Shown: piece by piece, positions 14,817-64,000 of the stretch | Layout of the letters: the number at the start of each line of letters is the position of its first letter | Position numbering within the stretch: the first letter of the stretch is position 1 | NCBI GenBank assembly: GCA_951812575.1 | Contig: OX638322.1 | Location: forward strand, 710,850-774,849 | Direction: 5' to 3' | Source of the DNA: Candidatus Binatia bacterium | GTDB lineage: Bacteria; Desulfobacterota; Binatia; Bin18 | DNA length: 64,000 nucleotides | Notes under the pieces: generated by a model | What the model was told of the DNA's origin: nothing | The model's input: only the letters and a program-made list of their open reading frames with translations | The model's database searches: none | Made by a program: the position numbers and the translations under genes

Positions 14817-14842
14817 AGATGTCGGCAAAGGCTGTCTGCAAC

Positions 14843-15418
14843 TTACAGCAGGTTAAACTGCTTGAGCACGTTGGCGACTTCGGGGTCGCGCTGGCCTAGG
14901 GACCGCAAGGCTTCCAGCAGCGCCTCGACCCGCTGCCGATTGGTGCTCAGGTCCGCTTCCAGACTTTTCACTACGCGCTCAAAGGGTCGGATCATCGTTC
15001 GCCGGTCCCATAAGGCAAAACCGATGATGGCTACCACCAGCGCCGTAAAGGCCCCAAGCACGGCCAGGGTCAGGCGAAACTGCTGGGCGAACTGCTGGTT
15101 CATGTCCTCGCGCAGTTGCTGAATCTGCCGGGTCATATCCTCGCGCAGTTGCTGATCCTGCCGGGTCATATCCTCGCGCAGTTGCTGATCCTGCCGGGTC
15201 ATATCCTCGCGCAGTTGCTGGATATCGGCCCGGAGCTGCTGCATATCGGCCCGGAGTTGCTGGATGGCGTCCCGCACCCCTTGTAGCCCCCCTTCGAGTC
15301 GGGTCAGCCGCTCGACAATCTCCCGGTCGGTCAGGGCCGGTGCCGCCTCCACCGCCCATACCGGGCCAGACAGGACCGGCAGGACCAGGAGACAGGTGCC
15401 CAAGAACCAGCGTAGCAT
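14843..15418 (-). CDS. Secreted/membrane coiled-coil protein with tandem QQLR(E/A)DM repeats
   Basis: From ATG 15418: signal-like MLRWFLGTCLLVLPVLSGPVWA, then repeated QQLREDMTRQD units, a TM segment LTLAVLGAFTALVVAIIGFALW and a C-terminal tail. Confidence 0.65.
   Translation of the reverse strand: MLRWFLGTCLLVLPVLSGPVWAVEAAPALTDREIVERLTRLEGGLQGVRDAIQQLRADMQQLRADIQQLREDMTRQDQQLREDMTRQDQQLREDMTRQIQQLREDMNQQFAQQFRLTLAVLGAFTALVVAIIGFALWDRRTMIRPFERVVKSLEADLSTNRQRVEALLEALRSLGQRDPEVANVLKQFNLL
15100..15261. repeat. In-frame coding tandem repeats (33 bp x ~3.6, then 21 bp x 2)
   Basis: Units at 15100-15132, 15133-15165 and 15166-15198 (the last two identical: catatcctcgcgcagttgctgatcctgccgggt), with a partial unit from 15199. 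Then gatatcggcccggagctgctg / catatcggcccggagttgctg follow. Confidence 0.9.
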
Positions 15419-16241: not shown

Positions 16242-16572
16242 GCAACTTACAGCAGGTTAAACTGCTTGAGCACGTTGGCGACTTCAGGGTCGCGCTGGCC
16301 TAGGGACCGCAAGGCTTCAGCAGCGCCTCGACACGCTGCCGGTTAGTGCTCAGGTCCGCTTCCAGACTTTTCACCACGCGCTCAAACGGTCGGATCATCG
16401 TCCGCCGGTCCCATAAGGCAAAGCCAATAATGGCGGCCACCAGCGCGGTAAAGGCCCCAAGCTCGGCCAGGGTCAGGCGAAACTGACGGGCGAACTGCGT
16501 GTCCATGTCCTCCGCAGTTGCTGGATATCGGCGCGAAGCTGCTGGATATCCGCCCGTAGCGCGGTCAGTCCT
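16242..16572 (-). pseudogene. Frameshifted partial paralog of the 14843..15418 coiled-coil gene
   Basis: 16242-~16500 aligns with 14838-~15100 at high identity. There are 1-nt deletions (cttcagcag vs cttccagcag near 16318; ctccgcag vs ctcgcgcag near 16511). Track ORF 16300..16506 is its middle part. The signal peptide and 33-bp repeats are absent. Confidence 0.75.
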
Positions 16573-58588: not shown

Positions 58589-59870
58589 GGGAAGCCGCCT
58601 CCTTTCCATTGGCAGCAAACGCGCGGTCAACCGGTTGCCCCTTGAGCATCTGGTCGATGACATGGTGGCTGTGGCGGACAAGAATCTCTTCGTCGTGCAG
58701 ATAAAACTCTTTTTTCGCCCCGGACGAGAGCATGGACTGGGTTTCCTCGAAGGTCCGACCATCTTCCATGATAATATCGCGGAAGATCACGTTGCCGTAT
58801 TCCTGACTGAAACGCCGCCCCGGCGTGGTCGCCTTGGTATAGTACTGGGTCGAGGTCCACAGCGTCTTATCCACGCCAATAGGCATGAACTGATGGGTAA
58901 AATACGACCCCTGAGAAACATCAACAAAGAACGCCGGGAAGATGACGTTCAGGTCCAACGACCAGGCCTCGCTCCGCAGCGGATTCACCCCTGCCGGCAG
59001 ACCGTCCATCGAAAAGTCGCTCCGAATGACAATCTCGCCATGCTGGGCCGCCAGTTTGGCCACCGGACTCGGTTTGTAGTCCGCGCTGCCGAACAGTGAC
59101 ATACTGCCATGTCGCGGATACAGGGTGACATCCAGGCTGTGGGCGTAGGGGTTGTCTTTGCTGGTAAACGAGTCCGGGATGGAGCGTTTGTGCAAAAAGG
59201 CAATATGGTACACTTCCTGAAAGGCATCCTTGATGACTTTCCAGTTGGCGTTCACCTCCGAGGTCCACGAGGTGCTGGTAGTTGAGAATTCACCGAACGG
59301 ATAGCCCTCCAGTCCGGTTGCCAGGTCGCCCAGATACTCCTGTAGGGTCTCGGTCGGATTGGGATCGACATTGATGAAGATAAAGCCCTCCCACACGCCC
59401 ACCGCTACCCGTGTCAGGCCCAGGGTTTCTTTCTTGAGATCGAAAAAGCTCTCCTCGTCAGGCACGAACTTCAACTTCCCGTCCAGGCCGTAACTCCAGC
59501 CGTGGAACTTGCAGGTGAAATTCTGGCACGTCCCGCCCTGATCCCACGCGATTTTATTCCCCCGGTGCGAGCACATATTATGAAAAGCATGCACCGCCCC
59601 GTCTTTGCCACGGACGACAATGACCGAGGTATTGCACGCGGCCAAGTCTTGCACGAAATAGTCTCCGGCGTTCGGAATCCGTTCCACCCGCCCGACGTTC
59701 AGCCAGACTTTCTTGAAAATCCGCTCGCGCTCCAGTTCAAACTGCTCTTGTGAGATGAACACGTCCGCCGGAACCGGACCGGTCCCGAGGTGGGGATATT
59801 TATTGTGCCACTTATAGCCGCCGGCCGCGCCGTTGCCGTTTGCCGGAGTTCCGTTTGGTGTTGTACTCAT
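58581..59870 (-). CDS. Rieske oxygenase alpha subunit (paralog 2)
   Basis: Start at ATG 59870 after GGGAGG. CSHRGNKIAWDQGGTCQNFTCKFHGW. Confidence 0.85.
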   Translation of the reverse strand: MSTTPNGTPANGNGAAGGYKWHNKYPHLGTGPVPADVFISQEQFELERERIFKKVWLNVGRVERIPNAGDYFVQDLAACNTSVIVVRGKDGAVHAFHNMCSHRGNKIAWDQGGTCQNFTCKFHGWSYGLDGKLKFVPDEESFFDLKKETLGLTRVAVGVWEGFIFINVDPNPTETLQEYLGDLATGLEGYPFGEFSTTSTSWTSEVNANWKVIKDAFQEVYHIAFLHKRSIPDSFTSKDNPYAHSLDVTLYPRHGSMSLFGSADYKPSPVAKLAAQHGEIVIRSDFSMDGLPAGVNPLRSEAWSLDLNVIFPAFFVDVSQGSYFTHQFMPIGVDKTLWTSTQYYTKATTPGRRFSQEYGNVIFRDIIMEDGRTFEETQSMLSSGAKKEFYLHDEEILVRHSHHVIDQMLKGQPVDRAFAANGKEAASHA

Positions 59871-60021: not shown

Positions 60022-61257
60022 CTATGGCCTGCGGTAGAAACCGACCATATCCTCGATGACTTTATGCCCGTGCCGGACCAAGAGTTCCTGGTCCTGGAGC
60101 ACGAATTCTTTTTTCGCGCCCGAGGCGAGCATGGATTGGGTTGCTTCCAGGGTGCTGGCATCCTCCAGTAGTGCCTCGCGCAGCAGCACCTTGCTGTATT
60201 CCTGGCTGAAACGCTGTGCAGTGTTCTGGGCAGCGGGGAAATACGTCTTGACTTCCCAGAGGGTCCGGTCCGGCGCGAGTGGCCAAAAATTATGCGTCAG
60301 ATAGGTGCCGTCAAAAACAAACACATCAAAATTAGGGAAAATCATATTGGCATCAAAGGCCCAAAACTGACTCCGGGTCGGATTCACCCCCGGCGGTAAG
60401 TCAGCCATCTCCCAGTCACGCTTGACAATCGACGCGCCAAAGCGATGGGCCAGGAGTTCGACCGGGCTCGGCTGATGGCCGGGATTCCCAAAGACGGACA
60501 TGCGGTGGTTGCGTTCATACAGCCTAAACGCAAAAGCGTGCGCATACGGATTGTCCGGGCTGGTAAATGAATCGGGCAGGGAACGCTTATGTAAGAAGGG
60601 CACATGATAGGCTTCGTGAAAGGCGTCTTTGAGCACCTTCCAGTTGGCCTTCAGTTCCGTAGACCAGGCATAGCAGGTCGTCAGGTGCGCAAACGGATAG
60701 CCCTCCAGTCCGGCTCCAAGCTCACCGAGATGTTCGGTGAGGGTTTCCGGCGGGGTCGGGTCGAGATTGATAAAGATAAAGCCTTCCCACATCTCGACCC
60801 GGACCGGCGTCAGACCGAGCCGGTCTTTTTTGAGATCGCAAAAGCGTTCTTCATCCGGAACGAATCTCAAGCTGCCGTTGAGACCGTAGCTCCAGCCGTG
60901 GAATTTACACGTAAAATTCTGACACGAGCCCTGTTGATCCCAGACGATCTTATTACCCCGGTGGGAACACATATTATGGAACGCCTGCAGGACGCCGTCC
61001 CGGCCCCGCGTCAGGATAACCGACGTATCACAGACGGGCAGGTCTTTGACAAAATAATCTCCAGGCCGGGGAAGCTGTTCGATGCGGCCCACATTGAGCC
61101 AGGTCTTCTTATAAATGCGCTCTCGCTCCAACTCGAAGTATTCCGTTGAGACGCACGGCTCAATCGGAATCGGCCCGGTTCCGAGTTCCGGGTAAGCCTC
61201 GTGCCAGATCGTGCCGTTCGTGCCGGCATCCGTGTCGTGGTGTGTTTGTATAGCCAT
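60022..61257 (-). CDS. Rieske oxygenase alpha subunit (paralog 3)
   Basis: Start at ATG 61257 (MAIQTHHDTD). CSHRGNKIVWDQQGSCQNFTCKFHGW. Confidence 0.85.
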   Translation of the reverse strand: MAIQTHHDTDAGTNGTIWHEAYPELGTGPIPIEPCVSTEYFELERERIYKKTWLNVGRIEQLPRPGDYFVKDLPVCDTSVILTRGRDGVLQAFHNMCSHRGNKIVWDQQGSCQNFTCKFHGWSYGLNGSLRFVPDEERFCDLKKDRLGLTPVRVEMWEGFIFINLDPTPPETLTEHLGELGAGLEGYPFAHLTTCYAWSTELKANWKVLKDAFHEAYHVPFLHKRSLPDSFTSPDNPYAHAFAFRLYERNHRMSVFGNPGHQPSPVELLAHRFGASIVKRDWEMADLPPGVNPTRSQFWAFDANMIFPNFDVFVFDGTYLTHNFWPLAPDRTLWEVKTYFPAAQNTAQRFSQEYSKVLLREALLEDASTLEATQSMLASGAKKEFVLQDQELLVRHGHKVIEDMVGFYRRP

Positions 61258-61524: not shown

Positions 61525-61818
61525 ATGGATGTATTGATTACCGTCACATGGCGCGCAGGAGCGAGTCAGGCAGAGAATAGAGCCGCGGCCCAGGTCGTCC
61601 AGGAACGGCTCATGAATCCCTTTCCCGGTGTGACCATCATCAACACAGTGGCCGACCTCGGCAAACGCAAACTGTACGTCATCGCGGATGTCACCGAGCA
61701 TGCCGTCAACGATATCCGAACGACCCTGGAGCTAACGACCCAACCGGCAATCGAGAGCGTGGAGATTGCCCTTGTCGTGGACGGGAAGAAGGCCATCAAT
61801 ACCTATCTGGCGATGTAA
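61525..61818 (+). CDS. Small hypothetical protein, 97 aa (DUF3303-like by recollection)
   Basis: ATG 61525 after GGGAGG: MDVLITVTWRAGASQAENRAAAQVVQERLMNPFPGVTIINTVADLGKRKLYVIADV…. Confidence 0.45.
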   Translation: MDVLITVTWRAGASQAENRAAAQVVQERLMNPFPGVTIINTVADLGKRKLYVIADVTEHAVNDIRTTLELTTQPAIESVEIALVVDGKKAINTYLAM

Positions 61819-61844: not shown

Positions 61845-61896
61845 CTACCATTCCTCCCCGAACGGCTGGATATCAAGCTCAAAGGTCCAGCCCGAG
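61845..61896. repeat. 52-bp direct repeat, orphan copy of the SDR gene 3' end
   Basis: ctaccattcctccccgaacggcTggatatcaagctcaaaggtccagcccgag is 51/52 identical to 63710-63761. On the minus strand it would encode …SGWTFELDIQPFGEEW*. Confidence 0.9.
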
Positions 61897-61903
61897 AGTC
61901 GTA

Positions 61904-62503
61904 TTATGTCGCACAGAAAGTTTTCAAACGGTCTACGGTCCGTCTCAAGCTGTCGGAGGTAGCACCTGCTCGCCCGATGTCCCATGCGCTACGAATGAAT
62001 TCCCCAAGGCGGCTGTTATATCCTGGGCCTACTTTACTGGTTGCACCGAGTCTGGGGACAAGCTCTTCTCGCAGACCTGTCTTCCGGCTCTTCCGTGCGA
62101 GGGAAACAAGGAATTCTTTTGGATGCGGTATCGTGTCTGTATCGCCCGGGATTCGACTCAACGGAATTGCCAGCAAGTCCGCGACCCCTCTCCGGTCTGC
62201 CATAATCCAGGACTCGACTTCCATGACGGCGATGCGGAGGAAGAAATGCGGATGCTGTACCCCTTTGATCCAAGATTGGATGAGTCGCGGCGGACACGGG
62301 TTGGGGACATCCTGGTCAGCCAGCATAAAGACCGGAAATCCCCTGGCCGTTCTGTTCAGGCTGTCCGCCTTGTTTTGAAGATAGCCTTTTCCTTTCAAGC
62401 CAAGACGCTGGCTGACAACGATACCCAGACTTGTAAGAATTCGTCTCGAAACTGCCTCGCTCAGCACATCTTCAACTGCCAGGATAGCGCTTTTCCCGCT
62501 CAT
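61904..62503 (-). CDS. TOPRIM-like nuclease-family protein (DUF4276/AriB-like)
   Basis: 199 aa with a Glu in ILAVEDVLSE, a DxD in FMLADQDVP and a second acidic motif AVMEVESWIMAD. It has a 4-bp overlap with the upstream ATPase gene. Confidence 0.6.
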   Translation of the reverse strand: MSGKSAILAVEDVLSEAVSRRILTSLGIVVSQRLGLKGKGYLQNKADSLNRTARGFPVFMLADQDVPNPCPPRLIQSWIKGVQHPHFFLRIAVMEVESWIMADRRGVADLLAIPLSRIPGDTDTIPHPKEFLVSLARKSRKTGLREELVPRLGATSKVGPGYNSRLGEFIRSAWDIGRAGATSDSLRRTVDRLKTFCAT

Positions 62504-63654
62504 CCGAAGAAGCTCAACTGCTCAGCATCGGTCGGTCTCGTCCGGGGGAGGACAACTTCTCCAACTGTAAAACCTGATGCAAGCAAGGTACGGACCTCGT
62601 CAATATCTGCCGCTGGTTTGACCTCGGTTCCTTCTTTCGCAGGAGTGAGCAAAAGGACTTCATGACCGTCGATCCCCTGCTCCGTCAGCAGCGCATCGCT
62701 GTGGGTGCTGACAAGCACTTGCCTGCGGCGGTTGCGCTGCATTCTGGATATAAGAGGAGCCAGTTGTGCCACAATAGCCGCATTCAGCGACAGCTCCGGT
62801 TCCTCCAGCAAGAGGAGTGAATCGCCCTCCAATAACGACCACAGAAAACCGATCAGGCGCAACGTCCCATCCGAGAACTGGTCTTCTCGCTGCAAGCCCG
62901 CCTTCGGCCGCCAGTGAGAGTACAAGGCCTGAATGTGCGGGCGGCCCGTCGCCGGGTCTCGGATAAATTGGAGTTGTTCAAGCTGCGGCACGGCGACTTT
63001 CAGCGCCTTCTCAATTTTTGACAGACGAGAGCGACGGGTTTTCTCGTTTGTTTTCGCCAGGCGTTCCAGAAGCCCCTGGCCGAAAGGGTCGTCTTCGAGA
63101 ACACGTCCTTGGATGGAATCGGCAAAGCGCAGGAGTTGGGGAACCAAGTGCAGGTAGGTGGTCGCTTGAAAGAAGCGGACTACAGCGCGGAAATCTCCGT
63201 TGACATTGATCTGTTCAAGAAACGTCTGAGTGAGTCGGTCCCGATCCTTTTTGTCCTCTGTATCGGGTCTATCAAGGATCTGCTGGTCTCCCTTCCAGAC
63301 CCGTTCATGGGTGAGATACGGGTTTCGATAGCCTCGCGTTTCTTGACGCAGGCCAAGCGCGTACTGCCATGTCGGCGGTTCGCCGGCGGACTCGGCAAGG
63401 TGGACCTCCAGCTCGATTTCCGGGTCACGCCGTGCGGCCAAGCTCCGAATCTTCGATACCCCGCCCCGATCTTTGACGGCCTTTTGGAGCCCGCCCCCTT
63501 CGGTTTTCGCAATGTCACGAAAGAAACGGAACACATCCAGGAGGTTGGATTTCCCGGAAGCATTCGCTCCGACGATGAACTGGCGCTCGCGCAGATCGAC
63601 AGCAACGTGCTGAAAATTGCGCCAGTTCTTCGCTGATAGATGGCTGACAATCAT
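62500..63654 (-). CDS. ABC-type (AAA_15/AAA_21, OLD/AriA-like) ATPase
   Basis: NWRNFQHVAVDL…FIVGANASGKSNLLDVFRF (Walker A), FSDGTLRLIGFLWSL (signature-like), LLLLEEPELSLN (Walker B), VSTHS (H-loop). Confidence 0.75.
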   Translation of the reverse strand: MIVSHLSAKNWRNFQHVAVDLRERQFIVGANASGKSNLLDVFRFFRDIAKTEGGGLQKAVKDRGGVSKIRSLAARRDPEIELEVHLAESAGEPPTWQYALGLRQETRGYRNPYLTHERVWKGDQQILDRPDTEDKKDRDRLTQTFLEQINVNGDFRAVVRFFQATTYLHLVPQLLRFADSIQGRVLEDDPFGQGLLERLAKTNEKTRRSRLSKIEKALKVAVPQLEQLQFIRDPATGRPHIQALYSHWRPKAGLQREDQFSDGTLRLIGFLWSLLEGDSLLLLEEPELSLNAAIVAQLAPLISRMQRNRRRQVLVSTHSDALLTEQGIDGHEVLLLTPAKEGTEVKPAADIDEVRTLLASGFTVGEVVLPRTRPTDAEQLSFFG

Positions 63655-63709
63655 AGTAGAACTCCAGAAAATCTTACGTCACACCAATCCTAACCGTTTG
63701 CCATCCCCG

Positions 63710-63761
63710 CTACCATTCCTCCCCGAACGGCCGGATATCAAGCTCAAAGGTCCAGCCCGAG
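63710..63761. repeat. 52-bp direct repeat, genuine 3' end of the SDR gene
   Basis: Partner of 61845-61896. It encodes …SGWTFELDIRPFGEEW* on the minus strand. Confidence 0.9.
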
Positions 63762-64000
63762 CGGTCCTGGTGGACGATGCTCCAGATGGTGTCGGCGATC
63801 GCCGACGTTTTAATGAAAAATTCGTCCGGTTTGTCCTTGAGCAAGGCACGCGCAAACGGCATGTCAATGCCGCCGTCAATGACCAGAAAAGACACATGGA
63901 TGCCCTGCGGACCGAGGGTGCGCGCAATGGATTCGGTAAGAATACGCTGAGCGGTTTTGGTGGGCGCAAAGGCGGCAAATTGCGGGCGGCCCCGTCTCGA
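63710..64000 (-). CDS. Short-chain dehydrogenase/reductase, 3' part only (gene runs off the window end)
   Basis: Manual extension of track ORF 63710..63895 stays open to 64000: …FAAFAPTKTAQRILTESIARTLGPQGIHVSFLVIDGGIDMPF…, with an SDR-type AxxxK region and a V.ID/PG segment. Confidence 0.65.
   Translation of the reverse strand, partial: SRRGRPQFAAFAPTKTAQRILTESIARTLGPQGIHVSFLVIDGGIDMPFARALLKDKPDEFFIKTSAIADTIWSIVHQDRSGWTFELDIRPFGEEW

What the first reader, a model, noticed from the sequence alone, without database searches (positions are those of the whole stretch)
61845..63761. 1.8-kb two-gene defence-type cassette bracketed by 52-bp direct repeats that duplicate the 3' end of an SDR gene
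Seen: 61845-61896 and 63710-63761 are 51/52 identical. The right copy is the true end of the SDR gene (…WTFELDIRPFGEEW*). The left copy is an orphan that would encode …WTFELDIQPFGEEW*. Exactly between them lie the ATPase and TOPRIM-like genes (61904..63654) and nothing else. There is no integrase, transposase or IR. The cassette looks slightly less GC-rich than its flanks.

Inference: the geometry is that of site-specific integration into a gene's 3' end with regeneration of the target (attL/attR-like), but for a minimal cargo. This suggests capture or mobilisation in trans, or the residue of a larger element.
Basis: partly seen in the sequence, partly recalled or inferred. Interest (0 to 1): 0.65.

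Follow-up and report, generated by a model that had tools for sequence, protein, structure and literature searches.

The report
Defence cassette inserted with long target duplication
A two-gene candidate anti-phage cassette (HEC-01: ABC ATPase plus TOPRIM-like protein) was inserted behind a dehydrogenase gene of a sponge-associated Binatia bacterium by an event that copied the gene's last 52 bases; this recombinase-free mode was known for restriction-modification genes and is shown here for other defence and toxin-antitoxin modules.

Summary
The segments 61845-61896 and 63710-63761 are 51/52 identical and are the only two copies in the 5.18-Mb genome. They bracket exactly two overlapping genes.

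The genes are PADLOC HEC-01A (E 2e-155) and HEC-01B (E 2e-56), a published but unvalidated candidate defence system.

At least 13 congeneric genomes have an empty site with one 52-mer. The left flank aligns to 61896 and the right flank from 63710, so this is a true insertion with a 52-bp target duplication. Three other congeners carry the cassette at the same place.

An integrase-type reading is not supported:
- The cassette holds no recombinase, and none lies within 140 kb.
- No other cargo uses this site in about 20 genomes.
- The orphan copy carries internal deletions in two carriers.

Synonymous divergence of the cassette (0.2-0.7) equals that of the flanks, and dN/dS is 0.08-0.3. The cassette is therefore an old, functional resident.

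The same geometry recurs with other repeat lengths. It occurs twice more in this genome (225 bp and 235 bp; a HigBA-like and a Rosmer-like module) and around HEC-01 in other phyla (35, 120 and 288 bp).

This matches "insertion with long target duplication" as described for restriction-modification systems. It is a new member of a known kind and of moderate interest.

The parts
61845..61896 (-). Orphan copy of the last 52 nt of the SDR gene (16 codons plus stop, reading ...WTFELDIQPFGEEW*). It was displaced to the far side of the cassette.
   Evidence: 51/52 identical to 63710-63761. There are only two copies in the genome. Empty-site relatives have one copy. It evolves in concert with the true copy.
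61897..61903 (-). 7-nt trailer between the HEC-01B stop codon and the orphan copy. This is the novel junction made by the insertion.
   Evidence: It is homologous in all four carriers.
61904..62503 (-). HEC-01B, 199 aa, a DUF4276/TOPRIM-like putative nuclease.
   Evidence: PADLOC HEC-01B E 1.7e-56. Weak DUF4276 match, E 0.0017. E11, D12, D63, D65, E95 and E97 are invariant in 51 homologues. AF2 model pLDDT 93.7. dN/dS 0.16-0.30.
62500..63654 (-). HEC-01A, 384 aa, an ABC-type ATPase (AAA_21/AAA_15). Its stop overlaps the HEC-01B start (ATGA).
   Evidence: PADLOC HEC-01A E 2e-155. AAA_21 E 5.7e-36. The profile hits GajA, an OLD-family nuclease and AriA among solved structures. dN/dS 0.08-0.14.
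63655..63709 (-). 55-nt leader between the SDR stop and the ATPase start. Only the GGAG ribosome-binding site next to the ATG is conserved across phyla.
   Evidence: No sigma-70-like promoter on the minus strand and no terminator between the SDR gene and the ATPase, so read-through from the SDR gene is likely (inference).
63710..63761 (-). True 3' end of the SDR gene: the repeat copy that is contiguous with the gene body.
63710..64000 (-). SDR gene (235 aa; continues to window-equivalent position 64417, beyond the window end). This is the insertion target.
   Evidence: L003 5710-6417. Orthologues 82-98% identical in the genus.
61525..61818 (+). Convergent 97-aa ORF with no Pfam match. It is the left flank of the site. 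In empty genomes its stop lies 26 nt from the SDR stop.

Best explanation
The cassette is a HEC-01 candidate anti-phage module. It consists of an ABC ATPase and a translationally coupled TOPRIM-like protein.

It entered the short gap behind the SDR gene by an "insertion with long target duplication". Foreign DNA was joined in by host recombination or repair, so that the last 52 bp of the SDR gene now stand on both sides. The copy next to the gene body keeps the SDR gene intact. The other copy is a displaced orphan.

No dedicated integrase or transposase is involved. The junction most likely arose in one of two ways:
- One-sided homologous recombination plus an illegitimate join, the way orphan 3' ends arise in Rhs and T6SS loci.
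- Campbell-type single crossover of a circular or permuted fragment that already carried the SDR end.

The event is old. It happened once in this genus, and the cassette has since diverged together with its flanks under purifying selection.

The two repeats then act as substrates for host RecA:
- Gene conversion keeps them alike.
- Crossover between them deletes the cassette precisely. This explains the many empty sites next to carriers.
- Lineages in which the orphan has been broken by a deletion can no longer lose the cassette in this way.

Shown: the insertion, the duplication, the empty sites, the family assignment, the age, the selection, the concerted evolution of the repeats, and the recurrence of the geometry.

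Inferred: the molecular route of the first insertion, loss through the repeats, and the defence function. By analogy with PARIS, OLD and Gabija, the ATPase would sense a phage cue and the TOPRIM partner would cut nucleic acid.
For: Repeat and cargo:
- The repeat is real and unique in the genome.
- HEC-01A/B assignment: E 2e-155 and 1.7e-56.

Insertion:
- Empty sites with one 52-mer and sharp boundaries occur in G018, G015, G011, G005, G022, G003, G004, G010, G006, G017, G023, G007 and G019.
- The cassette sits at the same junctions in G001, G021 and G013.
- The cassette holds no recombinase, and there are only 4 Phage_integrase matches genome-wide, all far away.
- The site never holds other cargo.

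Age and selection:
- Cassette dS is 0.20-0.69, against 0.33-0.73 for the SDR and Rieske genes. dN/dS is 0.08-0.30.
- The near-identical G000-G021 patches lie inside the cassette. Its edges are as divergent as the flanks.

Behaviour of the repeats:
- Between G000 and G001 the orphan differs at 3/52 positions, against 31/86 in adjacent non-coding DNA (Fisher p 3e-5).
- The orphan shares lineage-specific synonymous variants with its own true copy.
- The orphan has independent 21-nt and 24-nt internal deletions in G021 and G013.

Recurrence of the geometry:
- Two further insertions in this genome duplicate 225 bp and 235 bp of a gene's 3' end. Both have empty sites in relatives and carry a HigBA-like or a Rosmer-like module.
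- HEC-01 loci in other phyla are bracketed by repeats of 288, 120 and 35 bp at 93-100% identity. Reversed-sequence controls reach at most 27 bits. Shifted windows give no repeat of 90% identity or more (0 of 200 against 4 independent of 77; p about 0.006 by hand).

Published precedent: RM systems inserted with long, variable target duplications and no mobility genes, some overlapping gene 3' ends (PMC2853133).
Against: - On the flank trees every carrier has an empty sister. A single old insertion therefore needs at least 8 independent precise losses, against 4 gains, so plain parsimony favours gains.
- The high similarity of the two copies within each genome would also follow from recent, repeated re-insertion, or from selection on the orphan.
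- The route of the first insertion cannot be read from the sequence. No microhomology is evident at the novel junction.
- No donor arrangement (SDR followed by the cassette, without an orphan) was found.
- Excision was not observed. The metagenome data are short k-mer contigs that cannot phase a 52-bp repeat.
- HEC-01 gave no protection in the only published test (bioRxiv 10.1101/2024.01.29.577857).
- The TOPRIM fold of HEC-01B was not recovered by Foldseek against the PDB.
Confidence: 0.68

Rival explanations
1. The cassette is an active but recombinase-free mobile unit. The repeats let host RecA loop it out as a circle, or amplify it in tandem. The circle, which carries one 52-mer, re-integrates by single crossover into the SDR end of cassette-free relatives in the same sponge. 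The patchy distribution would then reflect repeated gains as well as losses.
For: - Four carriers each have an empty sister.
- The repeats are kept nearly identical within each genome and carry the genome's own synonymous variants.
- In two other sponge samples the dominant strain has perfect 52/52 repeats.
- Filled and empty congeners co-occur in one sample.
- The cassette shows inter-species mosaicism.
- A "virus-like life cycle" through such repeats has been proposed for RM systems (PMC2853133).
Against: - Cassette edges and cassette dS match the flanks, as expected for vertical descent.
- The recent G000-G021 exchange tracts lie inside the cassette. Both lineages therefore already had it.
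- The orphan is decaying in two carriers.
- No circle or tandem junction was seen.
- Integration through 52 bp of homology is inefficient (general knowledge).
Confidence: 0.2
2. The 52-mers are attL and attR of a non-autonomous integrative element (CIME-like), moved in trans by a tyrosine or serine recombinase encoded elsewhere. Alternatively, the cassette is what remains of a larger island after deletion.
For: The geometry (a gene's 3' end regenerated, an empty site with one copy) is what site-specific integration gives. The orphan is more conserved than neutral DNA.
Against: - No integrase lies in or near the cassette. There are only 4 matches in the genome, none nearer than 140 kb.
- No larger or different element sits at this site in about 20 genomes.
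- The orphan is internally deleted in G021 and G013.
- Analogous events have repeat lengths from 35 to 288 bp and unrelated sequences.
- No inverted repeats or core-type motifs are present.
Confidence: 0.07
3. The cassette helped to insert itself. Its own ATPase and TOPRIM nuclease made the chromosome breaks whose repair produced the insertion and the duplication. This was suggested for restriction enzymes in RM insertions with long target duplication.
For: - The cargo encodes a putative metal-dependent nuclease with an intact acidic motif.
- Bracketing repeats are enriched around HEC-01 loci compared with shifted windows.
- The published hypothesis for RM systems (PMC2853133).
Against: The same genome has equivalent events whose cargos have no predicted DNA-cutting enzyme: a HigB-type toxin with an HTH antitoxin, and an XRE-M78 protein with a PIN protein. 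In L041 an ordinary SDR gene is the cargo and HEC-01B is the target. No target motif is shared between events.
Confidence: 0.05

Closest known systems
Insertion with long target duplication of restriction-modification gene complexes (Nobusato et al. 2000, Gene 259:99, cited from memory and through PMC2853133; Furuta, Abe and Kobayashi 2010, NAR, PMC2853133)
   Same: - A small defence gene unit with no mobility gene.
- Flanking direct repeats longer than 30 bp that are unique in the genome.
- An empty site with a single copy in a related genome.
- Repeat length that varies between events (46-420 bp in that paper; 35-288 bp here).
- Some repeats overlap the 3' end of a neighbouring gene.
- An insert with deviant GC content.
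   Different: - The cargo is not an RM system. It is an ABC ATPase/TOPRIM-like pair, with TA and Rosmer-like modules in the same genome.
- The host is an uncultured sponge-associated Binatia bacterium.
- A whole genus can be compared here. This shows the later fate of the repeats: concerted evolution, decay, and probable precise loss.
HEC-01 (Hma-embedded candidate 01), PADLOC-DB; Payne et al. 2024, bioRxiv 10.1101/2024.01.29.577857
   Same: Both proteins match the HEC-01A and HEC-01B models end to end. The gene order and overlap are the same. Relatives in G035 and L094 sit inside helicase/methylase/ATPase-type operons, as in the paper.
   Different: This copy is not embedded in a defence operon. 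It lies behind a metabolic SDR gene. The paper does not say how embedded systems get in, and it found no protection by HEC-01 in E. coli.
PARIS (AriA/AriB), OLD-family nucleases and Gabija (GajA)
   Same: An ABC ATPase is paired with a TOPRIM-type nuclease. HEC-01A matches an AriA model (E 4e-32). Its profile matches GajA, an OLD nuclease and AriA among solved structures.
   Different: The partner is DUF4276-like and 199 aa long. It is not AriB (DUF4435) and not a fused TOPRIM-Old domain. The best matches are the HEC-01 models by more than 100 orders of magnitude. No trigger or substrate is known.
Displacement of 3' ends by homology-facilitated illegitimate recombination in Rhs, CDI and T6SS effector-immunity arrays (Kirchberger et al. 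2017, PMC5361080)
   Same: Incoming DNA shares the upstream gene part, brings new cargo and pushes the resident 3' end downstream as an orphan. No integrase is involved.
   Different: In those arrays the displaced pieces are variable toxin tips with immunity genes. Here the duplicated piece is the identical end of a housekeeping-type enzyme gene, and the cargo is unrelated to it.
CIMEs and other att-flanked, integrase-less integrative elements (from memory: Streptococcus thermophilus CIME)
   Same: Direct repeats flank a cargo without a recombinase, at the 3' end of a gene.
   Different: CIMEs derive from ICEs and keep functional attL and attR sites that a related integrase uses. Here no such integrase or related element exists at the site, and the orphan copy decays.

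Membership tests
HEC-01 (PADLOC candidate defence system) | Protein A matches the HEC-01A ABC-ATPase model over its full length. | tested here: met
   PDLC04180, E 2e-155, residues 1-381 on model positions 1-379 of 382. AAA_21 E 5.7e-36.
HEC-01 (PADLOC candidate defence system) | Protein B matches the HEC-01B (TOPRIM-like) model, and its gene is adjacent on the same strand. | tested here: met
   PDLC04194, E 1.7e-56, residues 1-196 on model positions 1-197 of 204. A 4-nt ATGA overlap joins it to gene A.
HEC-01 (PADLOC candidate defence system) | Anti-phage activity. | not testable with these tools
   The only published assay found no protection in E. coli. Purifying selection here (dN/dS 0.08-0.30) argues only that the genes have some function.
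TOPRIM nucleases (OLD/PARIS/Gabija effector type) | Conserved Glu after strand 1 and DxD after strand 3 of a four-stranded alpha/beta core. | tested here: met
   E11/D12 follow strand 4-10, D63-x-D65 end strand 58-64, and E95/E97 follow strand 87-93. All are invariant in 51 homologues. The TOPRIM motif definition is from general knowledge.
TOPRIM nucleases (OLD/PARIS/Gabija effector type) | Fold similarity to a solved TOPRIM domain. | tested here: inconclusive
   The AF2 model has pLDDT 93.7, but Foldseek against the PDB gave no hit with E below 0.08 and no TOPRIM chain in the top 50. A profile search of PDB sequences gave nothing relevant.
PARIS (AriA/AriB) | An AriB partner with DUF4435/TOPRIM, and AriA as the best-matching ATPase family. 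| tested here: not met
   The ATPase matches AriA only at E 4e-32, against 2e-155 for HEC-01A. Protein B has no AriB match.
Insertion with long target duplication (Kobayashi group's class) | A related genome has an empty site holding a single copy of the repeated sequence. | tested here: met
   Thirteen congeneric genomes. The left flank aligns to 61896 and the right flank from 63710, and the two overlap by 52 bp in the subject.
Insertion with long target duplication (Kobayashi group's class) | A target duplication longer than 30 bp that is unique in the genome. | tested here: met
   52 bp, two copies only.
Insertion with long target duplication (Kobayashi group's class) | An insert shorter than 20 kb with no mobility gene, and a repeat that is not a tRNA or att site. 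| tested here: met
   The insert is 1813 bp and holds two genes, neither a recombinase. The repeat is protein-coding SDR sequence.
Insertion with long target duplication (Kobayashi group's class) | The cargo is a restriction-modification system (as the class was originally described). | tested here: not met
   The cargo is HEC-01. This is the respect in which the case extends the class.
Site-specific integrative element (attL/attR; CIME-like) | A cognate integrase in the element, next to it, or in related elements at the same site. | tested here: not met
   4 Phage_integrase matches, the nearest about 140 kb away; no other element at the site. Serine recombinases were not searched.
Site-specific integrative element (attL/attR; CIME-like) | Both att copies are conserved in all carriers. 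| tested here: not met
   The orphan lost 21 nt in G021 and 24 nt in G013.
Site-specific integrative element (attL/attR; CIME-like) | An excised circular form and a restored attB. | not testable with these tools
   Only k-mer contigs of public runs were available, and the 52-bp repeat exceeds k.
DNA transposon / IS-derived unit | Terminal inverted repeats and a short (2-15 bp) target duplication. | tested here: not met
   There are no terminal inverted repeats at the cassette ends, and the duplication is 52 bp.

The most novel reading that the evidence does not exclude
Long target duplication may be a general, recombinase-free way in which small selfish defence and toxin-antitoxin modules settle at gene ends and inside operons without breaking them. 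This is the "embedding" that Payne et al. left unexplained.

On this reading the repeats are more than a scar. Host RecA would keep them homogeneous. They would give the module a reversible life cycle: precise loop-out, tandem amplification, and Campbell-type re-entry into the same gene end of relatives sharing the sponge. Destruction of one repeat would fix the module in place.
Probability: 0.22. Interest if true: 0.7.

Novelty: new member of a known kind. Interest (0 to 1): 0.45.

Why it matters
Much is known about what defence systems do, and little about how the many systems without mobility genes arrive where they are.

This locus gives a clean natural series for one such route: empty site, intact repeats, decayed repeats, and a possible footprint of imprecise loss.

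It extends "insertion with long target duplication" from restriction-modification genes to an ABC-ATPase/TOPRIM candidate system and to toxin-antitoxin and Rosmer-like modules. It thereby argues that the cargo's own DNA-cutting activity is not required.

It offers a testable mechanism for how defence genes become embedded behind or within other genes without disrupting them.

It also shows that the closest relatives of this cassette outside the genus lie in other phyla of sponge symbionts. This points to exchange within that community.

Tried and rejected
1. Chance repeat or assembly artefact: rejected.

2. Integrase-mediated integration: no recombinase in or near the cassette, and no other element at the site.

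3. Transposon: no terminal inverted repeats.

4. Conserved cassette ends. The leaders and trailers of 21 HEC-01 loci share only the ribosome-binding site, so there is no defined element terminus.

5. Recent horizontal sweep: rejected, because cassette dS equals flank dS.

6. Empty sites for the 120-bp case in G035. Thirty relatives have no orthologous flank, so that case rests on geometry alone. The L094 and L067 cases likewise have no empty-site comparison.

7. Decayed repeats around HEC-01 in G032 and G033: none detectable.

8. Population-level excision. Logan contigs break at the repeat and cannot phase it. Only a co-occurring relative's empty site was seen.

9. Fold confirmation of TOPRIM by Foldseek against the PDB: no significant hit despite a confident model.

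10. My first dN/dS run was wrong, because gap columns shifted the frame. It was corrected.

11. SDR adjacency to HEC-01 in G033 and L041 looked suggestive. In those loci the SDRs are distant paralogues in other orientations, so I treat this as coincidence.
Full report
OBSERVATION

The two 52-nt segments at 61845-61896 and 63710-63761 are direct repeats, 51/52 identical. The only mismatch is at repeat position 23. A pattern search of the organism's single 5.18-Mb contig, allowing three mismatches, finds these two copies and no others.

The right copy is the real end of a 235-aa short-chain dehydrogenase (SDR) gene that runs off the window. The left copy is an orphan.

Between the copies lie four elements:
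- a 7-nt trailer
- a 199-aa gene
- a 384-aa gene whose stop overlaps the start of the 199-aa gene (ATGA)
- a 55-nt leader

There is no terminal inverted repeat, integrase or transposase. The cassette has 55.7% GC against 58.2% for the genome. Its third-position GC is clearly lower than in the flanking genes.

THE CARGO

The 384-aa protein matches the PADLOC model HEC-01A end to end (E 2e-155), and the 199-aa protein matches HEC-01B (E 1.7e-56). Pfam sees AAA_21 and AAA_15 in the first and a sub-threshold DUF4276 match in the second.

HEC-01 is an "Hma-embedded candidate" defence system of Payne et al. (bioRxiv 10.1101/2024.01.29.577857). It is an ABC ATPase with a TOPRIM-like partner, and it gave no protection against the phages tested in E. 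coli.

A profile of the ATPase hits GajA, an OLD-family nuclease and AriA among solved structures.

In an alignment of 51 HEC-01B homologues, E11, D12, D63, D65, E95 and E97 are invariant. In a confident AlphaFold model (pLDDT 93.7) they lie after strands 1, 3 and 4, which is the TOPRIM pattern. Foldseek against the PDB returned nothing significant, however, so the fold assignment rests on motifs and on the published comparison.

Among the four carrier genomes, dN/dS is 0.08-0.14 for the ATPase and 0.16-0.30 for the partner. The genes are therefore maintained by selection. In G013 the ATPase is split by a frameshift.

THE INSERTION

The organism is an uncultured Candidatus Binatia bacterium found in sponge metagenomes.

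In thirteen genomes of the same genus the left flank aligns up to window position 61896 and the right flank from 63710. The two alignments overlap by exactly 52 bp in the subject, so these genomes have an empty site with one copy of the 52-mer. The genomes are G018, G015, G011, G005, G022, G003, G004, G010, G006, G017, G023, G007 and G019. More distant members also have a single copy.

Three other species (G001, G021, G013) carry the cassette at the same junctions.

In no genome does the site hold anything else. The own genome has only four Phage_integrase matches. Two have the size of Xer recombinases, and none lies nearer than about 140 kb.

AGE AND DYNAMICS

Age. Synonymous divergence of the cassette genes between carriers (0.20-0.69) equals that of the SDR and Rieske genes beside them (0.33-0.73). 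Nucleotide identity at the cassette edges matches the flanks. Patches of 98-99% identity between G000 and G021 lie inside the cassette only, which shows later homologous exchange between two lineages that both already had it.

Distribution. On trees of either flank, each carrier has an empty sister: G000 with G018, G001 with G003 and G004, G021 with G017. A single old insertion therefore requires eight or more precise losses, and the alternative is four gains at identical junctions. I favour loss, because recombination between 52-bp direct repeats restores the empty site exactly and needs nothing but RecA. This point is inferred, not shown.

The orphan copy is informative in four ways:
- Between G000 and G001 it differs at 3 of 52 positions, whereas adjacent non-coding DNA differs at 31 of 86 (Fisher p 3e-5).
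- In each genome it shares that genome's own synonymous variants of the true copy. The two copies therefore evolve in concert, as expected from gene conversion.
- In G021 and G013 the orphan has lost its central 21 and 24 nt through different deletions. This removes the homology and would lock the cassette in.
- G017, the empty sister of G021, has an extra 15 nt (CTACCATCTTCCGTG) that looks like the first part of a second copy. It lengthens the SDR ORF by five codons. This may be the footprint of an imprecise loss.

Metagenome contigs. In two other sponge samples the dominant strain has perfect 52/52 repeats. In one sample a related species with an empty site co-occurs with the cassette-bearing type. 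Contigs built from 31-mers cannot show excision.

THE SAME GEOMETRY ELSEWHERE

A scan of the own genome for direct repeats found 19 pairs in which one copy is the 3' end of an outward-facing ORF. I checked two of them against relatives:
- At C1:4238192/4239646, 225 bp of the end of a luciferase-like monooxygenase gene are duplicated around a Gp49/HigB-type toxin and an HTH antitoxin. G018, G005, G003 and G013 have an empty site.
- At C1:2365591/2367847, 235 bp of the end of a small gene are duplicated around an XRE-peptidase M78 protein and a PIN protein. The first is PADLOC RmrA (E 1.6e-38), the Rosmer antitoxin type. G005 and G006 have an empty site.

In all three events the inner repeat boundary lies 0-7 nt after the stop codon of the intact gene. 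This may be survivorship, because only such insertions leave the gene whole.

Among 78 HEC-01 loci from other genomes, bracketing repeats of 93-100% identity occur in three further lineages:
- 288 bp of a type III methyltransferase gene end in a gammaproteobacterial MAG (L094)
- 120 bp next to an HmaA helicase fragment in another Binatia family (G035)
- 35 bp in a Desulfatirhabdium MAG (L067)

Reversed-sequence controls reach only 27 bits. Shifted windows give only 71-76%-identical paralogue matches.

In L094 a second 240-bp repeat of the downstream helicase gene's start abuts the first repeat. This is the structure expected when two variants of one operon are joined by one homologous and one illegitimate event.

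In L041, another Binatia genome, the roles are reversed. There, 97 bp of the HEC-01B end are duplicated around an ordinary SDR-like gene.

MECHANISM

Repeat lengths vary from 35 to 288 bp, the target sequences are unrelated, the cassettes lack conserved termini, and no recombinase is present. Together these exclude a fixed-site recombinase or a transposase as the general cause.

The pattern fits host recombination or repair, by one of two routes:
- Homology-facilitated illegitimate recombination that displaces the resident 3' end, as proposed for orphan ends in Rhs and T6SS loci (PMC5361080).
- A single crossover of a circular or permuted fragment that already carries the target end.

Which route applied here cannot be decided from the sequence.

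The cassette is probably transcribed by read-through from the SDR gene. The 55-nt leader has no promoter-like site and no terminator.

By analogy with PARIS, OLD and Gabija, the ATPase would sense a phage cue and release or activate the TOPRIM partner to cut nucleic acid. This is inference from family resemblance only.

COMPARISON WITH THE KNOWN

The phenomenon is the "insertion with long target duplication" described by the Kobayashi group for restriction-modification systems of all types. Those cases involve 46-420-bp repeats that are unique in the genome, no mobility genes and an empty site in a related strain, and some repeats overlap a gene's 3' end (PMC2853133). All defining features tested here are met except the nature of the cargo.

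That paper proposed that the cargo's DNA breakage might drive the event. The HigBA-like and XRE-M78/PIN cargos found here, and the plain SDR cargo in L041, argue against that requirement.

Payne et al. left open how defence genes become embedded in other systems. The L094 and G035 loci suggest this route.

The case is therefore a new member of a known kind. It is well documented, with some added value for the natural history of such repeats.

CAVEATS
- The gain-or-loss question is unresolved.
- The first insertion route is inferred.
- No excision product was seen.
- The G035, L094 and L067 cases lack empty-site comparisons.
- Serine recombinases were not searched.
- The defence function of HEC-01 is unproven.

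Noticed in passing
own genome C1:4238192-4239870 (locus L140 2693-4371): A second insertion with long target duplication. 225 bp of the 3' end of a luciferase-like monooxygenase gene bracket a Gp49/HigB-type toxin and an HTH_37 antitoxin. G018, G005, G003 and G013 have an empty site.
   Followed up: yes
own genome C1:2365591-2368081 (locus L139 3092-5582): A third such insertion. 235 bp of the end of a 111-aa gene bracket an XRE-peptidase M78 protein (PADLOC RmrA, E 1.6e-38) and a PIN protein, a Rosmer-like module. It is present in G018, G015 and G001. G005 and G006 have an empty site.
   Followed up: yes
own genome, 19 places listed (for example C1:2679110/2683624, 379 bp at 98%; C1:2256757/2261102, 385 bp at 99%; C1:1659508/1661902, 118 bp): Further direct-repeat pairs in which one copy is the 3' end of an outward-facing ORF. 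Some cargos look metabolic. Several may be paralogue patches or spurious ORFs.
   Followed up: partly
window 14838-15121 and 16242-16523: A 284-bp direct repeat (92.6% identical, spacing 1404) inside this window (C1:725687/727091). It was not examined.
   Followed up: no
L094 5696-5983/8046-8333 and 7814-8053/12265-12504: In a gammaproteobacterial MAG, HEC-01 sits between a type III methyltransferase and a Ppl-like 890-aa ATPase. Two abutting repeats flank it: 288 bp of the methylase end and 240 bp of the downstream helicase start. This is the signature of two operon variants joined in tandem.
   Followed up: partly
L041 7643-7739 and 9011-9107: In another Binatia genome, 97 bp of the 3' end of HEC-01B itself are duplicated (90% identical) around a convergent SDR-like gene. 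Here the defence gene is the target and a metabolic gene is the cargo.
   Followed up: partly
L036 (G017), empty site next to the SDR stop: An extra 15 nt (CTACCATCTTCCGTG) resembling the start of a second 52-mer. The SDR stop codon is changed, and the ORF runs five codons further into this sequence. It may be a footprint of imprecise loss of the cassette.
   Followed up: partly
loci L042-L046, L051 against G032, G033, G035: The ATPase is 86% identical to one in a MAG labelled Entotheonella, 77-78% to Latescibacteria and 74-75% to Poribacteria. It is only 52-56% identical to those of other Binatia families. This suggests exchange among sponge symbionts of different phyla. The organism labels are the submitters' own.
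   Followed up: partly
L031 (G013), ATPase gene: The HEC-01 ATPase of G013 is split by a one-base frameshift (two pieces, one TGA). The 97-aa ORF left of the site is missing in that genome.
   Followed up: partly
window 59139-59595 and 60538-60991: Two adjacent Rieske oxygenase alpha-subunit genes are 71-75% identical paralogues (repeat families D1 and D2). They explain the only strong repeat hit in the shifted-window control for the own locus.
   Followed up: no
sponge metagenome runs X1, X2, X3 on L003 3845-3896: The single mismatch of the orphan copy (T at repeat position 23) is polymorphic. In X1 and X2 the left-flank contig runs into a 52-mer with C, giving perfect repeats. X3 holds both forms.
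   Followed up: partly
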